From assembly GCA_039189765.1 (NCBI GenBank), contig JBCCYL010000005.1, positions 64,001 through 128,000 of the forward strand: DNA of 64,000 nt. The letters run 5' to 3'. Below the pieces are notes generated by a model. The model had not been told where the DNA came from. It saw only the letters and a list, made by a program, of their open reading frames with translations, and made no database searches. The stretch's first letter is position 1; every line of letters begins with the position of its first letter. Origin of the DNA: Cyanobacteria bacterium P01_F01_bin.150. GTDB lineage: Bacteria > Cyanobacteriota > Cyanobacteriia > CAKZMO01. Made by a program: the position numbers and the translations under genes. Shown here piece by piece: positions 22,824-63,565 of this stretch.

Positions 22824-25800
22824 TTAAAACTCTTCTTCGAAGTCTGGATCAAGTGGAGAACCATGAGTTGAGTTTTGATAATCACCTCCATGCCAACGCT
22901 TCAAATGTTCATTTCTAGTTGTCGGGTAAATATAATCTGGATTATCGGCTAATTGAGGATAACTGAGCGCACTATATTTATGATGCCCTTCTATAGAAAT
23001 ATCATCAAATTTCGGTGTTTTTCCAGCAAGAATAGCTTCTTGCTGTTCTAAAGACCAGTTTCTTGTACCTGATTCACCTGTCTTTAAATTTCTTCTTTCT
23101 TTGGACCAAAATCTACTTACGCCTCTTGCTCTTCTGTTACCAAAACGACGATCCCAATCTAAATGATCCCATTCTTCCTTTGATAAAGTTCTATCACTTA
23201 ACTTTTGTTCTAGCTCTTGTTTTTGTGATGATGTTAAGGGCGAAAATGGTGTCCTGTAGCTAGGCATATCTTCCTCTTTTCGTGAAGAACCTATCCCCTT
23301 TTTCTCCATATCTTCACTAACAATTCTAGCCCGTTCCTGAGGACTAGAAGCTTTATCGATATCTTCTCTCTTATCATCAGTTAAATCAGCAGCTTTACAT
23401 ACTGAACAAACGTAAGTGTCACCATCGTCAGTGACCTTTACTTTATGACCACCGGGTAATTCTTCCTCCGCAACTTTGTCTCGTTCAACGTCTGCATTAT
23501 CGCGTTTTTGTTGAGTGCTATCAGAGGATTCCAGGGAGTCTTCAGAATCGGTGTCTGGGCTTTCTTTTTTATTACGTTTGTCGCGGATGCCTTTGGCCAT
23601 GCCCTTGAGTTTTCCAGCGATCGCCTTCCCTGCCGCCTTCAACTTACCGATGACCCATTGGGCAATGAAATTGAGGACAATAATTGCAGCAGAGGCAATC
23701 AAGCCAGCAAAAAGCGGTGCTGCGCTCCCCATCTTCACCGCTTGCAGGAAGCTGACAAACATAGTGAACGCTACCAAAACCTGACTTACAGTGCCCCAAG
23801 CCGCCATCAAGCTTTGGACAATGGTAATCACCGCTCCCACGGCTGGATTCAGCATCGAGATTAATTTCTCAATCAAGACTCCGAGGAGAATACCGGGAAT
23901 GGCCGCCACCAAGTTATCCCAAACCATGCCCCCGATCGCGCTCCAACTAAAGCCTCCCTGTTCCAAATCATCCACCTGTTCGGGGGCTAATCCCGTAATT
24001 TGCTGCACCTTGCCATCAAACCATCCCTGCGTCTGGCTTTGCATCTTGGGCCACAGCACATCTTCTTGGACGCCTCCTTGGACGCCAGAGCCAAAGTTGC
24101 TGATCCACTGACCGGGATTCGCTGCAATATCGGGAATAATCGCTTGCAATGCCCCGAACGCTTGAGCGGCACTTTGGGCCGTTTGTAAAATACCGCTGAT
24201 GGTACCACTAAGGCCGCTGACCACTGCATTTAAGCCCTGATTTAATAGCCCAAGGGCTGCATCTAAACCTTGTCCCAAAAGGTCGAGAGATTTTTGGATA
24301 CCCGTTTTCAGCCCCTCGGCCAGGGTATTGACGGTTTCCTCTGCTCGGTTGACCGCATCCTGAATAAAGCTACGATATCGATCACGAATTTGGGGGAATT
24401 TGGCCAGGAGGCGATCGCCCACCGCAATTAACGCATCCCCCACTCGCCGGATCACCCCAACAATCGCTTTTCGGCCTGCTTCAATGGCGGCAGTAGCCAG
24501 TTCTTTCGCTTTTTCGATCGCTGCTCGAATCGCCTTTCGGGCCGCATCAAAGGCCGCTTTAATCGCATTTTTAATTCCCTCAAAAAAGCCCTTGACCTTA
24601 TCCGCCATCCAGCCAAACACGCCACTGGATTCCTGCTGACCCTTGTGTTTTTCCGCTGCCGCTTGCTGCTCCCCTTTAATCCGCTCCTGCTCCGCCTGTT
24701 CTTCCCCTTTCTGAATTTCCTCAGACGCTTTGGATTCGGCGGTCCCCTTTTCAGTTTCAATCTCGGCCAACCCATCCGTAACCAATTGACTGGCTTCCGT
24801 TTGGGCAGAGGCTAATTCTGTATCCTGTTCCCCTTGCCAGTCCTGACGTAGGGTACTTACTTCAGCTTGAGCATTAGCTCGTTCGGTTTCCTGTTGTTGC
24901 AGGGTTTCCTGTTGGAGCTGAGCAATGTCTTGTTGCGATCTCGCCCGTTCATCCGCCACCGTTGCGGCATGGTCAGATTGCTGGGTTGCCATTTCTCCCT
25001 GAGCTTGGGCGATCGCGCCTTGAATCTCAGCCCCATGTTGCTCTTGGGCAATCACTGATGCCGCTTCTAAGCCAGCAGTACTTTGCTCAATGACAGCCGC
25101 AGCCCCACCTACAGCCCCACCACTAGTCCCCTGTAAGGTTTCCTGGGGCAACGTAGGATAAATGTCGCTCTCTCCCATTGACGCTAGGGCATCTTCCAGA
25201 CCTTTAGATTGAATATCAGCAGCACTGGCATTTAATTCAGCTTTCTGTTCTTGCGCCTTTTGTGGATCAGCATTCCCCGTGAGGTTCAGTTGAGGAGGAG
25301 ATCCAGCAGATGTAGAAGGTGCACCCATATCTTGAGTCGGCAACTGATTCACCGATGACGCAATCTGTTGAGCATCACCGCCAGATAGAGTGCCATCTTC
25401 ACTGCCTTGGACGTGGGGTGTCGGAATGGCAACTGGAGGCGCAGGCGCTACAGGTGGCGTAGGGGCTGGTTTCTCAACTGGAACTTCTGTCCCTTCTGGC
25501 GCGGGTGTTACTGATGTCGGAGTATCCGCAGTTGGAGCAGTCGCAGCCTTACTCCCCTCTTTTCCATTCGGTGTTTGAGCTGTTGGTGGATTTGCCGTTA
25601 AGGTCTCCTGCTCTTGGGTAACGCTATGGGCGATTGCCTGGGAAACCCCCCCCAACGCTGATTTCAACTGAGCGGGGGGCAGTGAGCTTACTCCGGCTAA
25701 GGCACTGGTGGGGTCTGATTTAGACACATCAGGAATCGCTGGAGTGGGTGGTGTTTGAACCGCAGCCCCACCGCCACCACCGCCACCGCCACCGCTTGGC

Positions 25801-27935
25801 CCCAGCGGTGATTCAGTTAAAGCCGATCGAGCAATACTTTGTTCCGTGGGCGAAAGTAAAGGACCTTCAGTACTCCGCTGTTCTGCCGGAACGGCTGAGA
25901 GACGCTGCTGCATGGCGATCGCCTCAGCCCCCTCATCCACATTGCCCCCTTGCACTTCCGGCACGCCTCCACTAGGCATTGCCCCACCGCCGCCACTGCT
26001 GGATTGTTGGGGGGATGTTCCTCCTGACGATTGCTCAGATTGGGCCGATGATGGTGCTGATAGCCCGGTTACTTCACCAGCATTTAGCGTTTGGAGATTC
26101 GGATCACTTTGTTCTGGGGCATTTTGAAGATGAGCCTCTGGAGTAGCCTCTCCCGTTGCTGAGGAATCCTCTGGAGATAACAGATTTTGAGCAATATCTG
26201 GCACTGCCCCTTTAACGCGATCCAGTTTTTGCCGATCGGCTTCTCCTTTAACGCCTCCAGCAATCGTTTTTCCAGCCTCACCAAAGGTGCCACCCACACC
26301 ATGCTTTAATCCTTGGACTGTGGCTTGTTTCACCGCTTGTTTTTTCAGCCATGCTTTAGTCCCTTTTCCTTTCACTACTTTATCGGCTACTTTGTCCCCG
26401 ACCACTGCCGCCGGACCTTTCAAAATACTCTTAGGGACGGGATGTTCAAATCCTTGGTGTACTTTATCTAAGGATTTACCCACGTTGCCAACTTTTTGGC
26501 CGACCACTTTACTGCCTTGGGCGATCGCCTTATTTCCGCCGCCTAAGACTTTCCCTGCTTTCGGAATCACCTTGCTTGCTGCCTTGGCCCCTTTCCCTGC
26601 TAGGCCAACGGCATCACCAAAACCAGGAATCGCCGCAACACTTGATAGAGCTGCATTGCCCCAGTCCCCTTCTGCTGCGTACAAACCGGCATTGGCAAGG
26701 TCGGCGATCGCTCCCACCCCAGGAATAAAACCAGCCACATCTAAAGCTGTATGGGTTTCGTCTCGATATTTATCAAAAAAGCCAGACTCTTTATCTGTTT
26801 CCTGTTCTTGTTGCCGCGCCTGAATGGCTTCATCCTTCTGACATTTTGAGCATAGTCGCTGCACCTCATTGACTGGTGCTAAGGCCTGTCGCGATTTAGG
26901 CTGAATCTTTCCACCCGTCTGCTGAATCGTATGGGTCAGCTCATGGGCCAACAATTCCTTACCGCCACTCGACCCCGGATTATACTTCCCAGAATTAAAA
27001 TAAATATCCTGCCCATGGGTAAACGCCTGCGCCCCGATCGCCCCTGCCTCTTTCGGTGCCTCATGGATCCGCACGCCGCTAAAATCCGCCCCAAAGCGCG
27101 GTTCCATAAACGATCGCGTCTTATCCGATAGCGGACTGCCCCCACCCCGATGTTTACCTAAATCCGTCTCAAAATTATCGGGAGCCGCCAGCGGTTCTGC
27201 CCGCATCTGAATTAATGGCTTGGTGTGAACGGGTTCCTCATCTTCCACCTGAGACGGCTGGGAAAATGCCTGTATCCGAATTAGGGGTTCTCGTTGAATC
27301 GGTTCATCTTCTTCCTGCTGTCGCTGTAGCCCTGGCTTTGGAATTAGGCCATAGGGATCGGGGACAAACGAGTCAGGCATCGCCATCACCTGGGCGGCAG
27401 TACGATTCTCCTTTGGAGACGCTGCGCGAACGGCTTCCTGCTCATACTTATCTCCTGGTCGGCCAATGGTGAGCTTGGGCTGAATTCTGTGCTTTAGCTC
27501 GTCTTTTTCCTCCTGGACTCGTTGGGCAATCTCCTGCTGCCGCATTAACACCCCGATATTTAATTTGGGCTGAATCGGAGTTTCATCCTCGTCCCCATTC
27601 GTTGCCCGAGAAATGCCAGGAGTCCCTGTTTCGTCATCGTCTTCCCCCCCATCGCTGGCCGATTGGCGCTGAAGCAACACATTAGATTCCGGTTCGGCCT
27701 CTTCTGTTTGTCGCTGTAATGCTTGCCGTTGTACTGTTTTGCTAAAGCTATGGCCAAACTGGAGCGCATGGGCTATTTGTGCCTCTGCACTGGGATAGCC
27801 AGATTCAGACTGGTCACTATCCATCTCCCAATCTGATGTTGATTTTTGATGGGTTCCATAGCGCTGTAGCGGCTTATTACCTGGAGCCGACACATGGGGA
27901 GACGATTTGCCGTTGACGGGGGGATGGTGACTCAT
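22824..27935 (-). CDS. DUF4157 (eCIS core) polymorphic toxin with PT-TG motif and C-terminal Tox-GHH (HNH-like) nuclease
   Basis: MEPRFGADFSGVRIH..AFTHGQDIYF..LLAHELTHTIQQ; LDVAGFIPGVGAIAD..GDW; C-terminal FW.KE..GTRNWS.EQ..EGHH..YPQLADNP..EH..WHGG. Confidence 0.88.
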   Translation of the reverse strand: MSHHPPVNGKSSPHVSAPGNKPLQRYGTHQKSTSDWEMDSDQSESGYPSAEAQIAHALQFGHSFSKTVQRQALQRQTEEAEPESNVLLQRQSASDGGEDDDETGTPGISRATNGDEDETPIQPKLNIGVLMRQQEIAQRVQEEKDELKHRIQPKLTIGRPGDKYEQEAVRAASPKENRTAAQVMAMPDSFVPDPYGLIPKPGLQRQQEEDEPIQREPLIRIQAFSQPSQVEDEEPVHTKPLIQMRAEPLAAPDNFETDLGKHRGGGSPLSDKTRSFMEPRFGADFSGVRIHEAPKEAGAIGAQAFTHGQDIYFNSGKYNPGSSGGKELLAHELTHTIQQTGGKIQPKSRQALAPVNEVQRLCSKCQKDEAIQARQQEQETDKESGFFDKYRDETHTALDVAGFIPGVGAIADLANAGLYAAEGDWGNAALSSVAAIPGFGDAVGLAGKGAKAASKVIPKAGKVLGGGNKAIAQGSKVVGQKVGNVGKSLDKVHQGFEHPVPKSILKGPAAVVGDKVADKVVKGKGTKAWLKKQAVKQATVQGLKHGVGGTFGEAGKTIAGGVKGEADRQKLDRVKGAVPDIAQNLLSPEDSSATGEATPEAHLQNAPEQSDPNLQTLNAGEVTGLSAPSSAQSEQSSGGTSPQQSSSGGGGAMPSGGVPEVQGGNVDEGAEAIAMQQRLSAVPAEQRSTEGPLLSPTEQSIARSALTESPLGPSGGGGGGGGGAAVQTPPTPAIPDVSKSDPTSALAGVSSLPPAQLKSALGGVSQAIAHSVTQEQETLTANPPTAQTPNGKEGSKAATAPTADTPTSVTPAPEGTEVPVEKPAPTPPVAPAPPVAIPTPHVQGSEDGTLSGGDAQQIASSVNQLPTQDMGAPSTSAGSPPQLNLTGNADPQKAQEQKAELNASAADIQSKGLEDALASMGESDIYPTLPQETLQGTSGGAVGGAAAVIEQSTAGLEAASVIAQEQHGAEIQGAIAQAQGEMATQQSDHAATVADERARSQQDIAQLQQETLQQQETERANAQAEVSTLRQDWQGEQDTELASAQTEASQLVTDGLAEIETEKGTAESKASEEIQKGEEQAEQERIKGEQQAAAEKHKGQQESSGVFGWMADKVKGFFEGIKNAIKAAFDAARKAIRAAIEKAKELATAAIEAGRKAIVGVIRRVGDALIAVGDRLLAKFPQIRDRYRSFIQDAVNRAEETVNTLAEGLKTGIQKSLDLLGQGLDAALGLLNQGLNAVVSGLSGTISGILQTAQSAAQAFGALQAIIPDIAANPGQWISNFGSGVQGGVQEDVLWPKMQSQTQGWFDGKVQQITGLAPEQVDDLEQGGFSWSAIGGMVWDNLVAAIPGILLGVLIEKLISMLNPAVGAVITIVQSLMAAWGTVSQVLVAFTMFVSFLQAVKMGSAAPLFAGLIASAAIIVLNFIAQWVIGKLKAAGKAIAGKLKGMAKGIRDKRNKKESPDTDSEDSLESSDSTQQKRDNADVERDKVAEEELPGGHKVKVTDDGDTYVCSVCKAADLTDDKREDIDKASSPQERARIVSEDMEKKGIGSSRKEEDMPSYRTPFSPLTSSQKQELEQKLSDRTLSKEEWDHLDWDRRFGNRRARGVSRFWSKERRNLKTGESGTRNWSLEQQEAILAGKTPKFDDISIEGHHKYSALSYPQLADNPDYIYPTTRNEHLKRWHGGDYQNSTHGSPLDPDFEEEF

Positions 27936-28103: not shown

Positions 28104-28706
28104 ATGGCCTACAGTCAGTTCAAAACCCTGACCAGCGTTAAGGAAGCCTTTGGGATTACCACCCAGGAAGGCATCCGGTTTTTGCCAGATTTAGAGCCAA
28201 TTCAGCCATCTACAACGCTCCACAGTTTTTTTGGCTACAGTCTACCCGTTGCGGTTGCAACAGGCAGCGAAAAAGCGCGATCGGAGTTAATTATTAGCCC
28301 CGTCCTGCTAGAAGTGCGTCAGATTTTGCAACAGCGCATTAGCTTCTTTTCGGGGGAAGACTTTACGGTGGATGATTCAGTGGGGCTAAACGGCACCTGT
28401 GACTTCCTGCTGAGTCGTTCCACTGAACTGATTGAAATTGAAGCTCCGGTCTTTATTTTGGTGGAGGCCAAAAAGGCAGATTTGAAATCTGGGCTGGGCC
28501 AATGCGCTGCTGAAATGATTGCCGCTCAGCGCTTTAACCAGGTGAGGGGCCAAGATATTACCACCATTTACGGGTGTGTCAGCAGTGGTACCCAGTGGCG
28601 CTTTATGCAATTGGAAGAGCAGCAGTTGACTATCGATCTATATGATTATCCGCTGCCGCCCGTGGGGCAAATTTTAGCGTTTTTGGCGTGGATGGCAGAG
28701 CACTAA
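28104..28706 (+). CDS. Cyanobacterial PD-(D/E)XK restriction-endonuclease-like protein
   Basis: EKARSE, GTCDF..VEAKK..GLGQCAAEMIAAQRFN, YGCVSSGTQW. Confidence 0.82.
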   Translation: MAYSQFKTLTSVKEAFGITTQEGIRFLPDLEPIQPSTTLHSFFGYSLPVAVATGSEKARSELIISPVLLEVRQILQQRISFFSGEDFTVDDSVGLNGTCDFLLSRSTELIEIEAPVFILVEAKKADLKSGLGQCAAEMIAAQRFNQVRGQDITTIYGCVSSGTQWRFMQLEEQQLTIDLYDYPLPPVGQILAFLAWMAEH

Positions 28707-28821: not shown

Positions 28822-29094
28822 CTACGGCACTTGGCTACCAGCTAACGATTTAAGCCCAACGATGCGTTTGGTCAAAATGCGCATCACTTCGCTTGTCGAG
28901 TTGGGGGCGGGCAAGGGCTGTGACCACTCATGGGGTTCGGCATAACCAAGCTGATACATCTTGATAATGTGCTGGTTGACCACGGCTGGAGCACCGATGG
29001 CAATCACCCGCAGGATTTCAGCTTCTCCATGGTCTGGAACATCAGGATGCACAAAGTTGCCGAGCCGTTGGGCTTGGTTAATGGATGTCGTCAT
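28822..29094 (-). CDS. Small conserved hypothetical protein (IGxP..GYAEPHEWSQPLP..EVMRIL), copy A
   Basis: CAGGAG RBS before ATG 29094; near-identical paralogue at 62548-62817; alternative in-frame ATG at 29190. Confidence 0.75.
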   Translation of the reverse strand: MTTSINQAQRLGNFVHPDVPDHGEAEILRVIAIGAPAVVNQHIIKMYQLGYAEPHEWSQPLPAPNSTSEVMRILTKRIVGLKSLAGSQVP

Positions 29095-29294
29095 TAGAAC
29101 ACTCCTGTTTTGTTGTTGTAGGAGCACCCAAAGGACACGCCATCCCAAAAATATTGCAGAACAATATGGGATGGCGTTCAGGAGTGTCATAATACCTGAT
29201 AGCCAATCCGTCTGCTCGTACAGATGGGTTGGTTAGTCCTCTAGCTGTGTGTCAGCACATCTAGGGGACGCTTTTCGCGTTTTTGGGCGCTTGA
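29095..29294 (-). ncRNA. Putative structured RNA leader, copy A
   Basis: Three hairpins plus ACACTCCTG/CAGGAGTGT pairing over the RBS; several differences from copy B fall in predicted loops. Confidence 0.5.
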
Positions 29295-29300
29295 CAGCAG

Positions 29301-29329
29301 AGCATATCAGAAGCAAGGACAAGAAACAA
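29301..29329 (-). promoter_or_regulatory. Putative sigma-70 promoter TTGTTT-17 bp-TATGCT (extended -10)
   Basis: Both hexamers and spacing conserved in copy B while spacer bases vary. Confidence 0.45.
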
Positions 29330-29454
29330 CCGTATGCTCCAAAGCGATAAAAAGACGCTTAACGATTGGAAATACTCCGGGCCGCACGATGATTTTACCG
29401 TCGAGGATGATATTGATATTCTAGTTGAGCGCAACAGCCTAAGAGAGTATACAA

Positions 29455-56504: not shown

Positions 56505-56677
56505 GGTTCAGCCATTCATTCCATAAATGTATGCCTTTTCTGGTGGTCCTTTAGAGTGCCATTGCGTGTCTTGCCTCTACTATCCTCAAAAAGTGTTGTA
56601 ACGTTTGCTGTTCTTTGCTAACTCCATCACCGAGAATCAAAGTATTTGCTAAATCTCTTAATGTAAGGTGCGATGTT

Positions 56678-58774
56678 ATGGGTCGTGAGTCCTCTCCCCG
56701 CAGCAGAGTTGCGAATCCTTTTACGGGTGGTCAAAAGGATAGTTTTGGCCAGTCGTTTGGGTCGCGGAGGTCTGGACAACGTCCGAATTTTGGGGAAGAA
56801 GAGACCGATGCAGGGGCTGCGGCTAATACTGTGATGTCGATGGAGAGGGCGATCGCGCTTCAGGCCCATTTTATGGAAGCGTCGGGGCTGGGGGCTGTGA
56901 TTCAACGGCAAACGGAAGGGGAAGAGGAAGAACTTCAGCGACAGCCGGAGGAAGAGGAAACGCTCTCTCCCAAACTCAATGTTGCCCAACTGCAACGGCA
57001 GTATGACGAGCAGCAACAGGCTATGCTACAGCGCCAGCCGGAGGAAGAAGAGGAAACGCTCTCTCCCAAACTCAATGTTGCTCAACTGCAACGGCAGTAT
57101 GACGAGCAGCAACAGGCTATGCTACAGCGCCAGCCGGAGGAAGAGGAAGAGCTGCGGACTCGCCTATCGGTTCAACCGAAACTCACCATTGGCCAACCGG
57201 GGGATAAGTATGAGCAAGAGGCCGATCGCACGGCAGCGAAGGTGATGGCGATGCCGGATTCGATCGTTCAGGCGTTTGGGGGTTCGGGGGTTCAAGAGTT
57301 TGGGGATTCAGAGGTTAGCAAGCAAGGTGAACCCCAGTTCCAGCGTCGAATCAATGTAACTGCATCGATTCAGCGAAACCCAACCGAAGACGAAGAGCTA
57401 GCCCAACCAAAACTCCATAACTCCATAACTCCCCAACTCCATAACTCCATAACTCCCCAACTCCATAACCCCATAACTCCCCAACTCCATAACTCCCCAA
57501 CTCTCCAAGCCAAAGGGCAAGCGCCTACAGCACCTGAGAACTTCGAAACCCAACTCGCCCAACACAAAGGCAGCGGTCAACCGCTATCGGACGAGGCGCG
57601 ATCGTTTATGGAACCTCGTTTTGGGACTGACTTTAGCAATGTGCGGGTGCATGAAACGCCTGATTTAGCTAACTCGATTCAGGCCCAAGCGTTTACCCAC
57701 GGGCAGGATATTTATTTTAATTCAGGGAAATATAATCCGGGGTCAAGTGGTGGAAAAGAATTGTTGGCACATGAGTTGACTCACGTGGTGCAGCAAAAAG
57801 AGGCTGCTACAGTCATATCTCTACAACGAGAGGTAAAATCTCAAGCAAATGCACCAGTAGATCGAGTTATTATTCTATGTGACAAATGGAACGTACGTGA
57901 ACAGCCTTCACGTTCTGCATCAAAACTTGGAACCTTAAAGTACGGTGAAAAGGTTCCTCTCAAAGGGAAAAAGACGGAAAATTGGCTAGAGATTGAATAT
58001 TTAGGAAAGACTGGCTTTATTTATAAAAAATCTTGGATAAAAATTCAACGGAATGATGATCCTCAAACAGATCCCGCTGCTCTTGGTTATGTTGGACTCA
58101 ACCCAGAAGCCCATAAGGAAGCCGATGCACTTGAAAGTAGTTCAAAAGATACAGTAAATATTTCTCTAGATGAACCAACAGAACATGAAAATTATGATGC
58201 TTTAGACAAGCAGGAAAAGTTTGTCGTATCCCAATTAGGCGTTACCCCAAAACACCCTAAATTTCAGACTATCCTGAATTGTATAGAAAAATGCGATCCG
58301 GGTTTTCGAGAGCAAATGGCTGATCTGTTAATGATGTTTCGTAGTGCAGAATTAGGAAAATATAGCCTTGAGCGGCTAGTCTTTTCTGGGCATCACTATG
58401 ATGAGGGTGATTCTCATGCAGCTCAAAATGGCGTAGATACTTTAGCTGTGTGGGGAGAAGAGTTTTCGTCCGGTCAAATGAAGTCTAGTAAAGATTTAAA
58501 GAATTTAGTTACGGCTTTTCCGAAAGCTGCAGCTCAAGTCAAGGATATTATGTTTTCAGCTTGTAATTCAACAAAGCAAGTTGATCTTTGCAAACAATTT
58601 TTTCCTAATCTCAAGACCGTTTGGGCTTATAAGGGGAGTTCACCAAGTGTTAAGCAAGGTTCTTCAAGACACGTTGAACGTTGGAATAGCAGGACTGAAG
58701 GGGATAATATGCCAACCAAACGAGACAGAAAAGGTAAGATTGCGATATGGATAAAAGGCAGAGGCTTTATTTAG
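56678..58774 (+). CDS. DUF4157 effector with bacterial SH3 domain and putative caspase-fold cysteine protease C-terminus
   Basis: QRQ repeats, DUF4157 HELTH, SH3b-like NVRE.PS..LG.L..GEKV..WLEIEY.GKTGFI, then LVFSGHH..IMFSACNS. Confidence 0.82.
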   Translation: MGRESSPRSRVANPFTGGQKDSFGQSFGSRRSGQRPNFGEEETDAGAAANTVMSMERAIALQAHFMEASGLGAVIQRQTEGEEEELQRQPEEEETLSPKLNVAQLQRQYDEQQQAMLQRQPEEEEETLSPKLNVAQLQRQYDEQQQAMLQRQPEEEEELRTRLSVQPKLTIGQPGDKYEQEADRTAAKVMAMPDSIVQAFGGSGVQEFGDSEVSKQGEPQFQRRINVTASIQRNPTEDEELAQPKLHNSITPQLHNSITPQLHNPITPQLHNSPTLQAKGQAPTAPENFETQLAQHKGSGQPLSDEARSFMEPRFGTDFSNVRVHETPDLANSIQAQAFTHGQDIYFNSGKYNPGSSGGKELLAHELTHVVQQKEAATVISLQREVKSQANAPVDRVIILCDKWNVREQPSRSASKLGTLKYGEKVPLKGKKTENWLEIEYLGKTGFIYKKSWIKIQRNDDPQTDPAALGYVGLNPEAHKEADALESSSKDTVNISLDEPTEHENYDALDKQEKFVVSQLGVTPKHPKFQTILNCIEKCDPGFREQMADLLMMFRSAELGKYSLERLVFSGHHYDEGDSHAAQNGVDTLAVWGEEFSSGQMKSSKDLKNLVTAFPKAAAQVKDIMFSACNSTKQVDLCKQFFPNLKTVWAYKGSSPSVKQGSSRHVERWNSRTEGDNMPTKRDRKGKIAIWIKGRGFI
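57411..57506. repeat. 8-bp tandem repeat AACTCC(AT/CC), about 11-12 units, inside the effector gene
   Basis: Translated KLHNSITPQLHNSITPQLHNPITPQLHNSP. Confidence 0.9.
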
Positions 58775-59390: not shown

Positions 59391-61103
59391 TTATTTACCT
59401 ATGATTTTACTCTTTAAATCAGTGCATTTCTTATTATTTTTGAAGAAAATACCTAATCGAGTTGAAGATGGTAGTCTTTTAAGTTGATTATGAACGGCAT
59501 CCAACTTACATTCAATAATTTGAGGTAAAAATAGTTCATAATCTTCATGCTTTATATCATCTTGAAAGATATTAATACTACCTTGATTGATATCATGAAA
59601 AACAAGATGGGTGAGAAAAAAATTACCATGAATAGTTATCTTATTCACTAATTTAGATTCATTACTTCTGTCCTGTAGATGCTTCTTCACACTTCTATAG
59701 ACTTCAATACTGCGCCACAAATTTAGAGGGGATACTCCAGCGTTAAAAATTCTTTTGTAGAGTGAAGAAGACGTATCGGCCCAAAATTCAGAAACGTCTT
59801 TTTTGAGAATTACGACTAAATTCAAATCATCATTATTACAGACTAATGCTTCTGTAGCTTCTAATAACGTGCAAGAATTTTCACTACTAATCATTTCATC
59901 TGATCGCTTGTAGAAATAGGTCTTATTTCTATCCCATGTTTTTAGCTCTCTAGCTAATTTTCGTTGAATTGGATCCAATGCTAGGAAGTCCCGATTTTCA
60001 ACATGATTTTGAGTATTGGAAGCTTTAGTAATATCAAGACCAAAATTTTCAGGACAGTCTTCTAAAGATATTAGCTTTATTAATACTTCAGTTTGTTCAA
60101 GGTTTTCTCGTGCTTCATCTGTCCCCTCCCTGTAGTATCGCCCAATACTGCCAATTGTTTGGGCTCCATTAATGATACTAAGTCCTTTGCACGTAAAATC
60201 GTCATTAAGTCTCTTCACGCCTTTTGTTTTTCTCCGAATTTCCTGACATAAAGCTGTGATACCATTATTGAAATACCAAAATGATGTTGGGTCCTCTTTC
60301 AGAGTTCGGGTAATATCATCATTTGCTTTAGTTTGTCCTATAAACTCTCTAAGGTTCTGAGAAAATAAGTTATTGCGGTGCTTGATCCATAACTCTGCTA
60401 ATTCTAGAGCAGAAATAGAACCATAAAAAGCTGTAGGGTCATCCATTTTTCCCCAATTCGATAAGTTTATATTAGCCTCTATATTCAGCTTGTTTGCATT
60501 TTCTACAGCCGTTTTATAGGCTATATCCTTATCAAACAACTGATATGAAAAAATTTCATCATCTTCGTTAGTATTTAAGTCTCCTACCAAATCCTCTAAG
60601 CACTTTCGACTTGTTTTGGTTAAACCCTGCCCCGTATGAGTAATAACGATGTTTACTTTTACTCCAAATGTTGACAAGGCACACTCTGTTTCCTCTTTTT
60701 TTTGGCAAAGCCGAGAATTAGGTCTGTCTAGATTATCTTCAATTAAATTTCTAACTCCTGTAGCAAAATTATTAATGTCTTTATATTCAGGCTGACCAGT
60801 CCCTTTCTTGATCCATTTAGATTGAATAAACCAAAGAACATTATCGTTTTTGTGCCAAAAGATTGCATCTATTCCATTGTCCCCTTGGCCATCAACGATG
60901 GATTCAGCGGCTTCATTTGCTCCAATACCTGCTAAAGCATACAAAGTATAAGCGGCAAACCCACGACTTAAGAATGCAGTAGCTTTATCAACGCGTGAGC
61001 CTTCTAAATCTGTTAAATCAATTAAGTCTTCTCCAAAAAGCCGCTTAATTTCTCCCTGAAGTTGTTTTACTGCAAACTTTTGGGTATCGTTACTTGGAGC
61101 CAT
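59391..61103 (-). CDS. AIPR family protein (abortive infection phage resistance)
   Basis: DGQGDNGIDA..FIQSKW, LFSQNLREFIG, FWYFNNGIT, IINGAQT, SNTQN.V..RDF; start ATG 61103 or TTG 61124. Confidence 0.92.
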   Translation of the reverse strand: MAPSNDTQKFAVKQLQGEIKRLFGEDLIDLTDLEGSRVDKATAFLSRGFAAYTLYALAGIGANEAAESIVDGQGDNGIDAIFWHKNDNVLWFIQSKWIKKGTGQPEYKDINNFATGVRNLIEDNLDRPNSRLCQKKEETECALSTFGVKVNIVITHTGQGLTKTSRKCLEDLVGDLNTNEDDEIFSYQLFDKDIAYKTAVENANKLNIEANINLSNWGKMDDPTAFYGSISALELAELWIKHRNNLFSQNLREFIGQTKANDDITRTLKEDPTSFWYFNNGITALCQEIRRKTKGVKRLNDDFTCKGLSIINGAQTIGSIGRYYREGTDEARENLEQTEVLIKLISLEDCPENFGLDITKASNTQNHVENRDFLALDPIQRKLARELKTWDRNKTYFYKRSDEMISSENSCTLLEATEALVCNNDDLNLVVILKKDVSEFWADTSSSLYKRIFNAGVSPLNLWRSIEVYRSVKKHLQDRSNESKLVNKITIHGNFFLTHLVFHDINQGSINIFQDDIKHEDYELFLPQIIECKLDAVHNQLKRLPSSTRLGIFFKNNKKCTDLKSKIIGK

Positions 61104-61258
61104 GTAACTAAAAATCTCATTCAAACTGTATCATCATTATTTCTAGCATATATTTCTCTGAATAATGATGATGTAATCCTGCTTAATTCTAGAAAGATAT
61201 GGAAATAGGGTTTGACGACAAAGCTCTGGGTTTCTACGCATAGCTATCGTCTTGCTTA

Positions 61259-61545
61259 GATCGCCCTCGCGTAGGGAGTATTAGCGTAACGAAGTGGAGC
61301 GCAATGCACCATTATTTCTCGGGATGTGGGATCGGGGGATTACGCGATCGCCAATCCACCCTACGTGATTGGTTTTCTCTTGTGGCGATCGCATCCCGCA
61401 AACGCGATCGCACCATTCTGGATTTTGGAGCGCGATCAATTTGGGCAGAGTTGTAAAGGAGCGATTTCCTTTCGGTAAGGCTAACGCCAACGCTTTGGGT
61501 GGGGAAGGGCGATCGCATTGAGTGAAGTGGAAAAGGGGCGATCGC
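61259..61545 (+). repeat. ~290-bp direct repeat copy 1 (REP doublet plus HIP1-rich tail)
   Basis: Near-identical to 63274-63565 except the spacer between the REP pair. Confidence 0.9.
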
Positions 61546-61759: not shown

Positions 61760-62098
61760 TTAGGCGATCGCAAACTCTGTATATTGTCGAACATGGGGAG
61801 GATGAAACGCTAACACAATATCTTGGGATTTGATGCCTCGTTGCATTAACTCTGTTGCGATTCCATCTTCTGTCCAATCTTCCTCAACCCAGATTTTTTC
61901 ATCCTTTATTCTTATATGAATCATGGCACTTTTAATACGCTCATCTTGTTTCCATCCCATTAGCATTAATAAATAATGATCTCGCTCTTCATCAAACATT
62001 AAGCAACTTTCAACTTCGGATCTAGACTTTTGATTTATTTGATGATATTCACATAGAATATTTTGAATAGCCTGACGGTATTCTACTCTTTTATCCAT
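61760..62098 (-). CDS. xisI: XisI family protein
   Basis: YRQAIQNIL..FDEERDHYLL..GW..HI.IKD.KIWVEED.TE.GIA.EL..GI..DIVLAFHPP.VRQYTEFA. Confidence 0.95.
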   Translation of the reverse strand: MDKRVEYRQAIQNILCEYHQINQKSRSEVESCLMFDEERDHYLLMLMGWKQDERIKSAMIHIRIKDEKIWVEEDWTEDGIATELMQRGIKSQDIVLAFHPPHVRQYTEFAIA

Positions 62099-62230: not shown

Positions 62231-62311
62231 TGGCAGCAAATAGTTGTTATACCCACAAGTTTAGCTTATTGCGATCGCGTAGGACGCATTAGCGAAACAA
62301 AGAGCATACGG

Positions 62312-62340
62312 TTGTTTCTTGCCCCTGCTTCTGCTATGCT
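62312..62340 (+). promoter_or_regulatory. Putative sigma-70 promoter TTGTTT-17 bp-TATGCT
   Basis: TG at the extended -10 position; conserved in both copies. Confidence 0.45.
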
Positions 62341-62346
62341 CTGCTG

Positions 62347-62547
62347 TCAAGCGCTCAAAAACGCGAAAAGCGTCCCCTAGATGTGCTAGAGACACAGCTA
62401 GAGGACTAACCACCCCATCTGAGAAAGCAGACGGACTGGCTATCAGGTATTATGACACTCCTGAACGCCATCCCATATTGTTCTGCAATATTTTTGGGAT
62501 GGCGTGTCCTTTGGGTGCTCCTAAAACAACAAAACAGGAGTGTTCTA
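62347..62547 (+). ncRNA. Putative structured RNA leader, copy B
   Basis: Hairpins at 62372-62406, 62410-62439 and 62466-62504; 62455-62463 pairs with 62535-62543 over the RBS. Confidence 0.5.
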
Positions 62548-62817
62548 ATGACGACATCCATTAACCAAGCCCAGCGGCTCGGCGACTTTGTGCAGCCCAA
62601 TGTCCCAGACCATGGAGAAGCTGAAATCCTGCGTGTGATTGCTATCGGTTCCCCCCCCGTGGTCAACCAGCACATCATCAAGATGTATCAGCTTGGTTAT
62701 GCTGAACCCCATGAGTGGTCACAGCCCTTGCCTGCCCCCAGCTCGACAACCGAAGTGATGCGCATTCTGACCAAACGCATCGTTGGGCTTAAATCGTTAG
62801 CCAGTAACCCAGTATAA
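62548..62817 (+). CDS. Small conserved hypothetical protein, copy B
   Basis: CAGGAG RBS; paralogue of 28822-29094 with many synonymous differences. Confidence 0.75.
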   Translation: MTTSINQAQRLGDFVQPNVPDHGEAEILRVIAIGSPPVVNQHIIKMYQLGYAEPHEWSQPLPAPSSTTEVMRILTKRIVGLKSLASNPV

Positions 62818-62827
62818 GTTCTGCGTT

Positions 62828-62891
62828 GGGTCAGGAGACCTGACCCCTACCGTGGCTAAATACCCTGTAGGGGCGCGGTCTCCGCGCCTAA
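62828..62891. repeat. Second GTAG-type REP pair
   Basis: GGGTCAGG-AGA-CCTGACCCCTAC and GTAGGGGCGCGG-TCT-CCGCGCC hairpins. Confidence 0.6.
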
Positions 62892-62991
62892 TGCAGAGCG
62901 GTTAGCAATCGGCATTGTTCACCGAAACTGCATGAATCAATGGATGCCAGAACCCTGGGATCTTTGCAAAGGGCGATCGCCTTTTTCAAGG

Positions 62992-63270
62992 TTAGTGCTC
63001 TGCCATCCATGCTAAAAACGCTAAAATTTGGCCAACGGGCGGCAGCGGATAATCAAATAGATCGATAGTCAACTGCTGCTCTTCCAATTGCATAAAGCGC
63101 CACTGGGTGCCATTGCTGACACAACCGTAAATGGTGGTAATATCTTGGCCCTTCACCTGGTTAAAGCGCTGAGCAGCAATCATTTCAGCAGCGCATTGGC
63201 CCAGCCCAGCCTTCAAATCTGCCTTTTTGGCCTCCACCAAAATAAAGACCGGAGCTTCGATTTCAATCAG
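62992..63270 (-). pseudogene. 5'-truncated copy of the 28104-28706 PD-(D/E)XK gene
   Basis: LIEIEAPVFILVEAKK..WMAEH* is nearly identical; homology ends abruptly at the HIP1/REP at 63271. Confidence 0.85.
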
Positions 63271-63273
63271 CGC

Positions 63274-63565
63274 GATCGCCCTCGCGTAGGGTGCATTAGC
63301 GTAACGCAGTGGAGCGTAATGCACCTTAATTAAAATTACCTGGGCCTGGAATCGGTGGATTACGCGATCGCCAATCCACCCTACGTGATTGGTTTTCTCT
63401 TGTGGCGATCGCATCCCGCAAACGCGATCGCACCATTTTGGATTTTGGAGCGCGATCAATTTGGGCAGAGTTGTAAAGGGGCGATTTCCTTTCAGGAAGG
63501 CTAACGCCAACGCTTTGGGTGGAGAAGGTCGATCGCATTGAGTGAAGTGGAAAAGGCGCGATCGC
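63274..63565 (+). repeat. ~290-bp direct repeat copy 2 (REP doublet plus HIP1-rich tail)
   Basis: Near-identical to 61259-61545. Confidence 0.9.

What the first reader, a model, noticed from the sequence alone, without database searches (positions are those of the whole stretch)
62302..62817. Duplicated autonomous unit: promoter, ~200-nt structured RNA and 89-aa protein of unknown function
Seen: TTGTTT-17-TATGCT promoter; hairpin 1 GTCC.CTAG.TGTG-loop-CACA.CTAG.GGAC with loop CTAGAGA versus CTGACA in copy A; hairpin 2 CCATCTG-loop-CAGACGG with loop AGAAAG versus TACGAG; hairpin 3 CGCCATCCCA..TGGGATGGCG; a 9-bp ACACTCCTG/CAGGAGTGT helix that buries the AGGAG RBS. Stems are largely kept while loops vary, and ORF changes are often synonymous, so both RNA fold and protein appear selected. 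Inference: an RNA-controlled module (riboregulator, type I toxin-antitoxin-like, or phage c4/CI-like antisense with loop-encoded specificity). I recognise no named family for it.
Basis: partly seen in the sequence, partly recalled or inferred. Interest (0 to 1): 0.76.

Follow-up and report, generated by a model that had tools for sequence, protein, structure and literature searches.

The report
New cyanobacterial leader-RNA/small-protein cassette family
This locus is one of dozens of copies per genome of an undescribed cyanobacterial gene cassette, in which a folded leader RNA that looks like an on/off translation switch sits in front of a small protein of unknown function.

Summary
Copy B (62302-62817, +) and copy A (28829-29339, -) are 93% identical. 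They belong to a family with 9 DNA-level, 51 RNA-level and 59 protein-level matches in this 10.6-Mb genome.

A covariance model built only from the other subfamilies finds both window leaders (E 1.5e-7 and 3.6e-6). It also hits 45 of 151 cyanobacterial genomes. In 31 of 35 foreign hits the protein domain lies just downstream.

Covariation is strong: 38 of 44 pairs change on both sides, and no shuffle of 500 reaches the observed score. A core strand can pair with the Shine-Dalgarno region instead. That alternative covaries (0 of 5000 permutations), and the two states are near-isoenergetic.

Two apical loops are hypervariable while the scaffold is far more conserved than synonymous sites. Rfam, Pfam, NCBIfam, PHROGs, PADLOC and PDB gave nothing.

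Best reading: a new cis-acting translational switch with an unknown trigger. A type I toxin-antitoxin or c4-like antisense mechanism is not supported.

The parts
62312..62340 (+). Copy B putative promoter: -35 TTGTTT (62312-62317), 17-nt spacer, -10 TATGCT (62335-62340). The predicted start near 62346-62348 coincides with the start of the RNA-model match.
   Evidence: Read. Conserved in the 7 copies that include this stretch. Not listed by the consensus scan. The homologous position in the large subfamilies is a strong CTTGAC-N17/18-TAnnnT. Transcription start not shown.
62347..62521 (+). Copy B leader core. P1 closing helix (62350-62359 with 62510-62519) encloses H1, H2, H2b and H3.
   Evidence: Covariance model R1, built from 43 leaders of other subfamilies, scores 31.3 bits, E 1.5e-7 in the 102-kb search and 7.3e-10 locally. 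RNAalifold and the minimum-free-energy fold agree.
62372..62406 (+). H1 hairpin with hypervariable apical loop L1 (62386-62392, CTAGAGA).
   Evidence: Across genomes, 7 of 8 lower-stem and 4 of 4 upper-stem pairs show changes on both sides. Distinct 7-nt L1 loops follow a profile like Y-U-N-N-N-A-A.
62414..62434 (+). H2 hairpin with hypervariable apical loop L2 (62422-62427, AGAAAG).
   Evidence: The inner H2 stem is 99.4% paired and 4 of 4 pairs change on both sides.
62443..62464 (+). H2b small hairpin (UCAGG...CCUGA). Its 3' strand lies within the anti-SD ACACUCCUG (62455-62463).
   Evidence: the H2b fold and the anti-SD:SD helix exclude each other. The H2b stem covaries across genomes, though only 65.8% of cells are paired in the model-fitted alignment.
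62466..62504 (+). H3 hairpin (CGCCAUCCCA ... UGGGAUGGCG).
   Evidence: The homologous hairpin in other subfamilies is 83.7% paired, and 4 of 8 pairs change on both sides.
62535..62550 (+). Shine-Dalgarno region CAGGAGUGU (62535-62543) and start codon ATG (62548-62550).
   Evidence: It pairs with 62455-62463 in the centroid fold. The forced ON and OFF folds differ by 0.1 kcal/mol.
62548..62817 (+). Copy B ORF: 89 aa plus stop. Disordered N-terminus; conserved core at residues about 26-78.
   Evidence: Homologues begin at this Met. AlphaFold2 core pLDDT is above 90. Purifying selection is seen. The longer in-frame ORF from 62452 has no SD and is not favoured.
29099..29329 (-). Copy A promoter and leader: -35 at 29329-29324, -10 at 29306-29301, RNA-model match 29121-29294, L1 at 29255-29250, L2 at 29220-29215, anti-SD at 29187-29179, SD at 29107-29099.
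   Evidence: R1 scores 26.5 bits, E 3.6e-6. Fold -80.2 kcal/mol, z -7.43.
28822..29094 (-). Copy A ORF: 90 aa plus stop.
   Evidence: 89% identical to the copy B protein.
62992..63270 (-). Truncated paralogue of the 200-aa ORF at 28104-28706 (+), convergent with the cassette in both copies. It was co-duplicated with the A/B pair and is not part of the family-wide unit.
   Evidence: 13 of 279 nt differ. Neither Pfam nor NCBIfam matches the full-length copy.

Best explanation
The unit is a self-contained gene cassette of a previously undescribed cyanobacterial family. It consists of its own promoter, a leader RNA of about 200 nt that folds into a multi-helix core (closing helix P1 around hairpins H1, H2, H2b and H3), and a small stand-alone protein. 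The protein has a conserved 55-residue beta-alpha-beta-beta domain and probably forms a homodimer.

The leader most likely acts in cis as a bistable translational switch. A strand that belongs to the folded core can instead pair with the Shine-Dalgarno region. In most subfamilies that strand is the 3' strand of P1; in the window's subfamily it is the 3' strand of H2b, ACACUCCUG. With the core folded the ribosome site is free (ON); with the core open the site is sequestered (OFF).

Shown computationally: the family, the fold, its covariation, the alternative pairing and its covariation, and the linkage of RNA to protein.

Inferred: that the switch operates in vivo, and what flips it. I lean to a macromolecular effector that binds the conserved junctions. 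The cassette's own dimeric protein, as feedback, is my first guess. A metabolite or a partner RNA docking on the two hypervariable loops cannot be excluded. The protein's function is unknown.
For: Family size:
- 9 DNA-level copies, 59 tblastn matches and 51 RNA-model matches in the own genome.
- The repeated unit is only leader plus ORF, and no neighbouring gene is conserved.

Homology of the window leaders to the other subfamilies: model R1 was built without them and finds both, and it finds nothing else in the 64-kb window below E=1.

Spread:
- R1 hits 45 of 151 sampled genomes of the class.
- The protein is found in 22 of 41 relatives.
- 704 cluster representatives reach E<=0.001; the 150 listed are 61-181 aa.

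Linkage of RNA and protein:
- 31 of 35 foreign RNA hits have the domain downstream on the same strand.
- 46 of 80 protein-derived loci have an R1 hit upstream in sense orientation.

Structure:
- 84.6% of cells are paired against 66.4% in shuffles.
- Covariation score 0.421 against 0.145 (0 of 500 shuffles reach it) and at most 0.079 when partners are slid.
- 38 of 44 pairs change on both sides.

Switch:
- The cognate P1-3' x SD duplex averages -16.05 kcal/mol against -11.75 for non-cognate pairs (0 of 5000 permutations). P1 itself averages -16.15.
- Forced ON and OFF folds differ by +0.1, +2.8, +0.2, -4.1, +0.5 and -0.7 kcal/mol in six subfamily representatives.
- Copy B shows both states, as minimum-free-energy fold and as centroid.

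Selection:
- In the own genome, 84 close pairs give scaffold 12%, 4-fold sites 23% and loops 55% differing.
- In G006 the figures are scaffold 4.4%, 4-fold 35.8%, loops 55%, amino acids 11.6%.

Protein:
- Core pLDDT is above 90.
- The homodimer model scores 0.66 against a best control of 0.00. That mark was reached by 20 of 30 proteins solved as pairs and 1 of 23 solved as single chains. The runs agree in at least 75% of contacts and partner pLDDT is at least 78.
Against: - There is no expression data. The transcription start, the leader's existence as RNA and any processing are unshown.
- The promoter of the window's subfamily is weak against the consensus.
- The alignment used for covariation was fitted to the model for P1, H1 and inner H2. 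Many rows are paralogues, so the shuffle statistics overstate independence.
- Helices H2-outer (60.7% paired) and H2b (65.8%) are poorly supported in that alignment.
- In the window's subfamily the P1-3' x SD pairing ranks only 27th of 30. There the switch rests on the ACACUCCUG helix, which is conserved but hardly varies among the 9 copies.
- A switch repeated 50-60 times in front of paralogues of one tiny protein has no precedent that I know of.
- The ligand is unknown, and nothing tested here shows that the protein binds RNA.
- 34 of 80 protein loci gave no R1 hit. Some lie at contig ends, and some carry a reduced one-hairpin leader.
Confidence: 0.6

Rival explanations
1. Antisense or kissing-loop control. 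Each cassette would be regulated by a private partner RNA, for example a cis-encoded antisense transcript read back through H2 and H1. Its loops would be automatically complementary to L1 and L2. Loop diversity would then insulate 50-60 paralogues from cross-talk, as in plasmid copy-number control or the P1/P7 c4 system.
For: - The loops are the fastest-evolving part of the unit: 55% differing against 23% at 4-fold sites and 12% in the scaffold. The same holds in G006 and in Elainellaceae MAGs.
- All 46 (L1, L2) combinations examined in the genome are distinct.
- L1 has a Y-U-N-N-N-A-A profile like an anticodon or U-turn recognition loop: in 44 distinct 7-mers, position 2 is U in 31 and position 6 is A in 39.
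- The reverse complement of the conserved H2b loop motif (GATTAT / GATTTT) reads CATAAT / AAAATC, which resembles a -10 box (read; inference only).
Against: - No complement to either loop is found in the cognate leader, ORF or 1-kb flanks above the non-cognate background, or among the loops of other copies.
- No promoter on the opposite strand is called in either copy.
- The GATTAT motif sits in a hairpin loop of the sense RNA whose stem covaries, which explains its conservation without invoking a promoter.
- Apical loops that are simply unconstrained would also saturate at the observed age of the paralogues (4-fold divergence 0.25-0.45).
Confidence: 0.15
2. Trans-acting ribonucleoprotein. The leader would be cut from the mRNA and, together with the dimeric protein, would act elsewhere, with L1 and L2 serving as two short guide or address segments. 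This would be comparable in layout to RNAs with two programmable loops.
For: - RNA and protein are tightly linked.
- Two variable loops sit on an invariant scaffold.
- The protein is predicted to be a symmetric dimer.
- Copy number is high and the distribution is patchy.
Against: - The loops offer only about 5-7 variable nucleotides each.
- The loops do not match the flanks.
- No nuclease, recombinase or other effector is conserved nearby.
- No longer fused form of the protein was seen (all 150 listed relatives are 61-181 aa).
- The SD-competition architecture is explained by cis regulation alone.
Confidence: 0.08
3. Selfish or mobile cassette. The conserved RNA or DNA structure would serve copying or integration by a factor supplied in trans, and the protein would be cargo or a helper.
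For: - There are dozens of dispersed copies, many at contig ends.
- Homology starts about 12-15 nt upstream of the -35 and ends near the stop codon.
- The copies sit in variable islands alongside XisI/XisH-like, Uma2-like, nuclease-like and group II intron reverse-transcriptase genes.
- The distribution among genomes is patchy.
Against: - The paralogues are old (4-fold divergence 0.25-0.45), yet RNA and protein remain under purifying selection. That fits retained function better than transposition bursts.
- The repeated unit holds no transposase or integrase.
- The A/B pair arose by a segmental duplication that includes the neighbouring gene.
- There is essentially no match in viral contigs: 1 locus with a 16-residue match. 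PHROGs gave none.
- Terminal repeats and target-site duplications were not examined.
Confidence: 0.07

Closest known systems
Translational ON riboswitches, e.g. the add adenine riboswitch of Vibrio vulnificus (recalled; not read here)
   Same: A junction-type core is closed by a P1 helix whose 3' strand can pair with the Shine-Dalgarno region instead. The two states have similar stability. The junction nucleotides are conserved and the stems covary.
   Different: No ligand is known. The core has five helices. No Rfam family matches. There are up to about 50-60 copies per genome, all in front of paralogues of one small protein. Two apical loops are hypervariable.
Glutamine riboswitch in the gifB 5' UTR of cyanobacteria (PMC6212724; only the abstract start in the listing was seen)
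   Same: A cyanobacterial leader aptamer controls expression of a small regulatory protein.
   Different: The Rfam searches returned no match to any family. The architecture, the protein and the copy number all differ.
Autoregulatory leaders of ribosomal-protein and phage coat or repressor genes (recalled)
   Same: A small protein is encoded directly behind a structured leader that governs access to its own ribosome-binding site.
   Different: Binding of this protein to its leader is untested. The fold search gave only generic alpha/beta matches: best Foldseek E 0.27 and best Z 4.0.
Kissing-loop antisense systems: P1/P7 c4-ant, R1 CopA/CopT, hok/sok (recalled)
   Same: Hairpins with 6-7-nt loops differ between otherwise near-identical elements. 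L1 has a U-turn-like composition.
   Different: No complementary target was found in cis or among the copies. No antisense promoter is called. The product is not a short hydrophobic toxin.
IS110-family bridge RNAs (recalled)
   Same: A structured RNA encoded upstream of an ORF carries two variable loops on a conserved scaffold, and the element is multicopy.
   Different: The ORF is an 80-150 aa protein with no recombinase domain. The loops do not match the flanking DNA. The variable segments are terminal loops of 6-7 nt.

Membership tests
Any Rfam 15 family | Match to a curated covariance model | tested here: not met
   0 matches at gathering score over the 64-kb window. 0 matches at E<=1 over ten loci, 31.7 kb, covering three subfamilies.
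Riboswitch / cis-regulatory leader (as a kind) | Conserved structured domain supported by covariation | tested here: met
   38 of 44 pairs change on both sides. Covariation score is 0.421 against 0.145 in shuffles (0 of 500) and at most 0.079 for slid controls. The alignment is model-fitted and includes paralogues.
Riboswitch / cis-regulatory leader (as a kind) | Expression platform with mutually exclusive pairing that involves the ribosome-binding site | tested here: met
   Cognate P1-3' x SD duplexes average -16.05 against -11.75 kcal/mol for non-cognate ones, 0 of 5000 permutations. ON and OFF folds lie within 0.1-4.1 kcal/mol in six representatives. This is computational only.
Riboswitch / cis-regulatory leader (as a kind) | Direct binding of a defined ligand that shifts the fold | not testable with these tools
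   Needs in-line probing or SHAPE, ITC and reporters.
Type I toxin-antitoxin | Short (usually under 60 aa) hydrophobic or membrane toxin peptide | tested here: not met
   Products are 78-152 aa, with a disordered N-terminus and a confident beta-alpha-beta-beta core. The size limit is recalled.
Type I toxin-antitoxin | Antisense RNA overlapping or complementary to the toxin mRNA | tested here: inconclusive
   No opposite-strand promoter was called. No RNA data could be obtained.
P1/P7 c4-like antisense control | Loop sequences complementary to target sites in the same transcript near the RBS | tested here: not met
   The longest complement of L1 or L2 in the cognate leader or ORF equals the non-cognate background: leader 4.91 against 4.84 and 4.82 against 4.78; ORF 4.58 against 4.44 and 4.38 against 4.39.
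IS110 bridge-RNA element | Adjacent DEDD/serine recombinase, and loops matching the target and donor flanks | tested here: not met
   No Pfam domain was found in the window proteins or in 25 relatives. There is no excess of loop-to-flank complementarity.
MITE / insertion sequence | Transposase in the unit, or terminal inverted repeats with target-site duplication | tested here: inconclusive
   The repeated unit is only leader plus small ORF and holds no transposase. Terminal repeats and target duplications were not examined.
Known protein families (Pfam, NCBIfam, PHROGs, PADLOC, PDB sequences) | Significant profile or sequence match | tested here: not met
   0 families for both window proteins in Pfam and NCBIfam. 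0 of 25 relatives match Pfam. 0 of 32 match PHROGs and 0 of 32 match PADLOC. The best PDB sequence hit has E 0.33.

The most novel reading that the evidence does not exclude
The cassettes form a repertoire of programmable RNA sensors. Each copy's two hypervariable loops (L1 shaped like an anticodon loop, Y-U-NNN-A-A) would dock one specific partner RNA: a cis-antisense transcript, a cellular RNA or an invading transcript. Docking would lock the core closed, free the ribosome-binding site and trigger synthesis of the dimeric small effector. The 46 distinct loop pairs in one genome would then be an address book, and loop diversification faster than synonymous change would be its signature.
Probability: 0.15. 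Interest if true: 0.92.

Novelty: new variant of a known kind. Interest (0 to 1): 0.78.

Why it matters
If the reading holds, this is a widespread structured RNA family supported by covariation. It was found in 45 of 151 sampled cyanobacterial genomes, mostly thin filamentous lineages such as Elainellaceae, Nodosilinea and Leptolyngbya. It is tied to a protein family with 704 cluster representatives at 50% identity. Neither appears in the curated libraries searched here.

Three features make it more than one further leader motif:
- The same bistable ribosome-site switch is built in two different ways in different subfamilies.
- Dozens of old paralogues per genome are each kept under strong purifying selection.
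- Two apical loops diverge faster than synonymous sites.

The family offers a clean system for asking how a cell insulates or addresses many copies of one RNA switch, and it gives an orphan switch whose trigger could be found with standard assays.

Tried and rejected
- **RNA-seq support:** no RNA holder was listed for the unit.
- **Synteny or empty-site comparison:** 5-kb queries around both copies found only scattered pieces in three same-genus genomes and no collinear flanks.
- **tRNA hypothesis:** L1 resembles an anticodon loop in composition. Its triplets are no closer to, or more complementary to, this genome's 57 anticodon loops than column-shuffled loops are (45 of 500 and 175 of 500 shuffles reach the observed value). 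L2 shows nothing.
- **Loop-loop kissing:** the L1xL2, L1xL1 and L2xL2 complement lengths equal those of shuffled loops. Cognate L1-L2 pairs with a complement of 4 nt or more number 6 of 46, against 4% of non-cognate pairs. This small excess was not pursued.
- **Loops as guides to flanks or ORF:** rejected.
- **Upstream ORF:** the ATG inside the conserved GATTATG motif is absent in two subfamilies and in many other genomes, so a leader peptide is rejected. The 121-aa in-frame extension from 62452 has no SD.
- **Fold searches:** Foldseek against PDB gave nothing at E<=0.001 (best 0.27, the ACT domain of phenylalanine hydroxylase). VIA-align wide gave a best Z of 4.0, generic alpha/beta halves. 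ESM Atlas returned only unnamed cyanobacterial clusters at 0.90.
- **Fused forms:** none among longer proteins, which is weak evidence.
- **Viral contigs:** one spurious 16-residue match.
- **RNAalifold long-range helix:** the predicted pairing of UUUAGCG with GGCUAAG conflicts with H3. I left it out of the curated structure.
- **Literature:** five searches found no description. PMC12873609 (outline and three passages read) screened only 931 KEGG-annotated orthologue groups, which would not include this unannotated family. Its supplements were not opened.
- **Orthologue pair L182/L184:** 94% identical over 1378 nt, with a reduced one-hairpin leader that is identical between the two. This single pair shows no ongoing loop hypermutation, but it is a different leader variant.
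Full report
**1. What is at the coordinates**

The window comes from a 10.6-Mb, 350-contig cyanobacterial genome.
- a -35 TTGTTT (62312-62317), a 17-nt spacer and a -10 TATGCT (62335-62340);
- hairpin 1 (62372-62406, loop CTAGAGA);
- hairpin 2 (62414-62434, loop AGAAAG);
- hairpin 3 (62466-62504);
- ACACTCCTG (62455-62463), complementary to CAGGAGTGT (62535-62543), which carries the AGGAG;
- an ATG at 62548 that opens an 89-codon frame ending at 62817.

The second copy lies at 28829-29339 on the minus strand. It is 93.2% identical over 512 nt, and its loops are CTGACA and TACGAG. The leaders fold far better than shuffles: z = -5.6 and -7.4, with 0 of 200 shuffles as good.

**2. The pair is the tip of a large family**

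- The unit's DNA matches 9 places in the genome at 75-100% identity, three of them cut by contig ends.
- The protein matches 59 places by tblastn (60).
- The paralogues fall into subfamilies that share a C-terminal core of about 55 residues.
- In five subfamily representatives the repeated DNA covers only about 300-400 nt upstream plus the ORF.
- Among 316 neighbouring ORFs no partner is conserved. The neighbours are XisI- and XisH-like, Uma2-like and nuclease-like genes, NACHT/WD40-type genes and group II intron reverse transcriptases.
- By BLAST, 44 leaders form one superfamily. The window's subfamily, here called S0, stands apart.

**3. S0 is homologous to the rest, and the RNA is widespread**

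I built covariance model R1 from 43 leader cores of the other subfamilies.
- R1 finds window 62347-62521 (31.3 bits, E 1.5e-7) and 29121-29294 (26.5 bits, E 3.6e-6). Nothing else in the window scores below E=1.
- R1 gives 51 matches in the own genome.
- R1 gives matches in 45 of 151 genomes sampled across the class, often many per genome.
- The protein occurs in 22 of 41 relatives, with 46, 27 and 25 matches in three of them.
- Named records include Elainellaceae, Nodosilinea, Leptolyngbya, Thainema, Almyronema, Sphaerothrix, Halomicronema, Egbenema, Vacuolonema, Scytolyngbya, Oculatellaceae, Coleofasciculaceae and Pseudanabaenales.

RNA and protein travel together:
- 31 of 35 foreign RNA hits have the domain within 700 nt downstream on the same strand, and the core usually ends 22-45 nt before the start codon.
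- 46 of 80 protein-derived loci have an R1 hit upstream in sense orientation.
- The other 34 include contig-end loci and a reduced one-hairpin leader variant.

**4. Structure**

Across 45 distinct sequences from many genomes, I scored a curated structure: P1, H1 lower and upper, H2 outer and inner, H2b and H3.
- It pairs 84.6% of cells, against 66.4% in shuffles.
- The covariation score is 0.421, against 0.145 in shuffles (0 of 500 reach it) and at most 0.079 when partners are slid.
- 38 of 44 pairs change on both sides.
- P1 (9 of 9 pairs), H1 (11 of 12) and inner H2 (4 of 4) are the strongest helices.
- Outer H2 (60.7% paired) and H2b (65.8%) are weak in this alignment.

Two caveats apply. 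The alignment was fitted to the model for P1, H1 and inner H2. Many rows are paralogues.

Conserved unpaired stretches suggest a specific tertiary core:
- CUAACCCC between H1 and H2;
- GGnGGCUA after H2;
- the H2b loop GAUU(A/U)U.

**5. A switch on the ribosome-binding site**

In most subfamilies the 3' strand of P1 and the few bases after it are complementary to the SD region just before the ATG (for example GUUCUGGUUUCC with GGAGACCAGAAC). This complementarity changes together with P1 in other lineages.

- Over 30 representatives, the cognate P1-3' x SD duplex averages -16.05 kcal/mol, against -11.75 for non-cognate pairs (0 of 5000 permutations). P1 itself averages -16.15.
- In S0 that pairing ranks only 27th of 30. 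There the anti-SD is ACACUCCUG, which is the 3' strand of H2b.
- So two subfamilies reach the same logic by different strands.
- Forcing either state gives nearly equal energies in six representatives: differences of +0.1, +2.8, +0.2, -4.1, +0.5 and -0.7 kcal/mol.
- For copy B the minimum-free-energy fold is the closed core, and the centroid is the anti-SD helix.

This is the layout of a translational ON switch: a closed core leaves the SD free. It is computed, not measured.

**6. Selection and the loops**

Within subfamilies the scaffold is much more conserved than synonymous sites, and the two apical loops are the most variable part.
- For 84 close pairs in the own genome, 4-fold sites differ at 802 of 3444 (23%), loops at 642 of 1160 (55%) and scaffold at 2002 of 16257 (12%). 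The scaffold figure is inflated by the variable linker.
- In 11 complete copies from G006, 4-fold sites differ at 35.8%, loops at 55%, scaffold at 4.4% and amino acids at 11.6%.
- For the window pair, 4-fold sites differ at 8 of 41, loops at 6 of 13 and scaffold at 5 of 188. The co-duplicated neighbour gene gives 6 of 35 at 4-fold sites.
- All 46 loop pairs examined are distinct.
- Distinct 7-nt L1 loops follow Y-U-N-N-N-A-A, the composition of an anticodon loop.

I could not find what the loops recognise, if anything:
- no complement in cis;
- no complement among copies;
- no specific relation to this genome's tRNAs.

Unconstrained loops would also approach saturation at this age. Faster-than-synonymous change is therefore suggestive of diversifying selection, not proof.

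**7. The protein**

- Neither window protein matches any Pfam or NCBIfam family. None of 25 relatives matches Pfam.
- None of 32 relatives matches PHROGs or PADLOC.
- No PDB sequence relative was found; the best hit has E 0.33.
- An exhaustive profile search finds 704 cluster representatives at E<=0.001. All 150 listed are 61-181 aa with the domain at the C-terminus.
- No longer fused form was seen, which is weak evidence.
- AlphaFold2 gives a confident core: residues 26-78 with pLDDT above 90, in the order strand, helix, strand, strand. The N-terminus is disordered.
- Fold searches give only generic matches.
- The homodimer model, formed through strand 1, scores 0.66 against a best control of 0.00. 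That mark was reached by 20 of 30 proteins solved as pairs and 1 of 23 solved as single chains. The runs agree in at least 75% of contacts, and partner pLDDT is at least 78. This supports dimerisation but does not show it.

**8. Interpretation**

The best-supported reading is a new cis-acting translational switch in front of a new small-protein family. It is organised as promoter-to-stop cassettes that are kept in dozens of old, selected copies.

The trigger is unknown. I lean to a macromolecule that binds the conserved junctions, with the cassette's own product first.

The rivals are a private antisense or kissing partner, a trans-acting RNP, and a mobile-element role. Each is set out with its evidence in the rival explanations.

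**9. Known or new**

- Rfam 15 gives nothing.
- Five literature searches gave nothing relevant.
- The 2026 screen of 202 cyanobacterial genomes (PMC12873609; outline and passages read) looked only around KEGG-annotated orthologue groups.
- The scan's own index has no note on this family.

I rate it a new variant of a known kind: a leader or riboswitch-like switch with unusual copy number and loop behaviour.

Noticed in passing
window 61259-61545 and 63274-63565: A direct repeat of about 290 nt (90-96% identical) brackets a 2.0-kb segment. The segment holds the XisI-family gene (61760-62098, -), cassette B and the truncated nuclease-like ORF. The second copy abuts the truncation point. Only these two full-length copies exist in the genome.
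   Followed up: partly
window 62818-62895: A two-hairpin repeat of about 75 nt lies directly after the stop codon of cassette B. It has 12 near-full copies in this genome and more than 40 matches in the same-genus genome G003. It looks like a MITE and is absent from copy A.
   Followed up: partly
window 28104-28706 (+) and 62992-63270 (-): A 200-aa ORF and its truncated paralogue lie convergent with the cassette in both copies, and similar ORFs lie near two other cassettes (cluster 5). Neither Pfam nor NCBIfam matches it. A ...VEAKK... stretch reminds me of PD-(D/E)xK nucleases; this is recalled and not tested.
   Followed up: partly
window 59391-61124 (-): A 577-aa protein matches the Pfam AIPR domain (E 3.2e-37). 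It also has a weak match, far below the curated cutoff, to the MZA-system protein MzaE.
   Followed up: no
G000 contigs C248, C253, C9, C2, C95 (own genome, outside the window): One cassette subfamily carries Asn/Tyr/Gly/Ala-rich low-complexity inserts of variable length between the conserved N-terminal MFQ...motif and the C-terminal domain. Its products are 105-152 aa.
   Followed up: no
flanks of several cassettes, e.g. G000 C69, C67, C47; fragment near window 62930-62960: A palindromic element of about 33 nt (GATCCCAGGGTTCTT.AAGAACCCTGGGATC) lies just upstream or downstream of at least six cassettes of one subfamily.
   Followed up: no
loci L182/L184 and L218/L226/L225: Thainema-like and Nodosilinea/Leptolyngbya records carry a reduced leader before the same protein family: one long hairpin, then ACCCC, then the SD directly. 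Model R1 does not detect this variant.
   Followed up: partly
window 22824-27935 (-) and 56615-58774 (+): Two large ORFs share a conserved segment (…FG.DFS.VR.HE…AFTHGQDIYF…). I recall this as typical of DUF4157-type domains. I did not test it.
   Followed up: no
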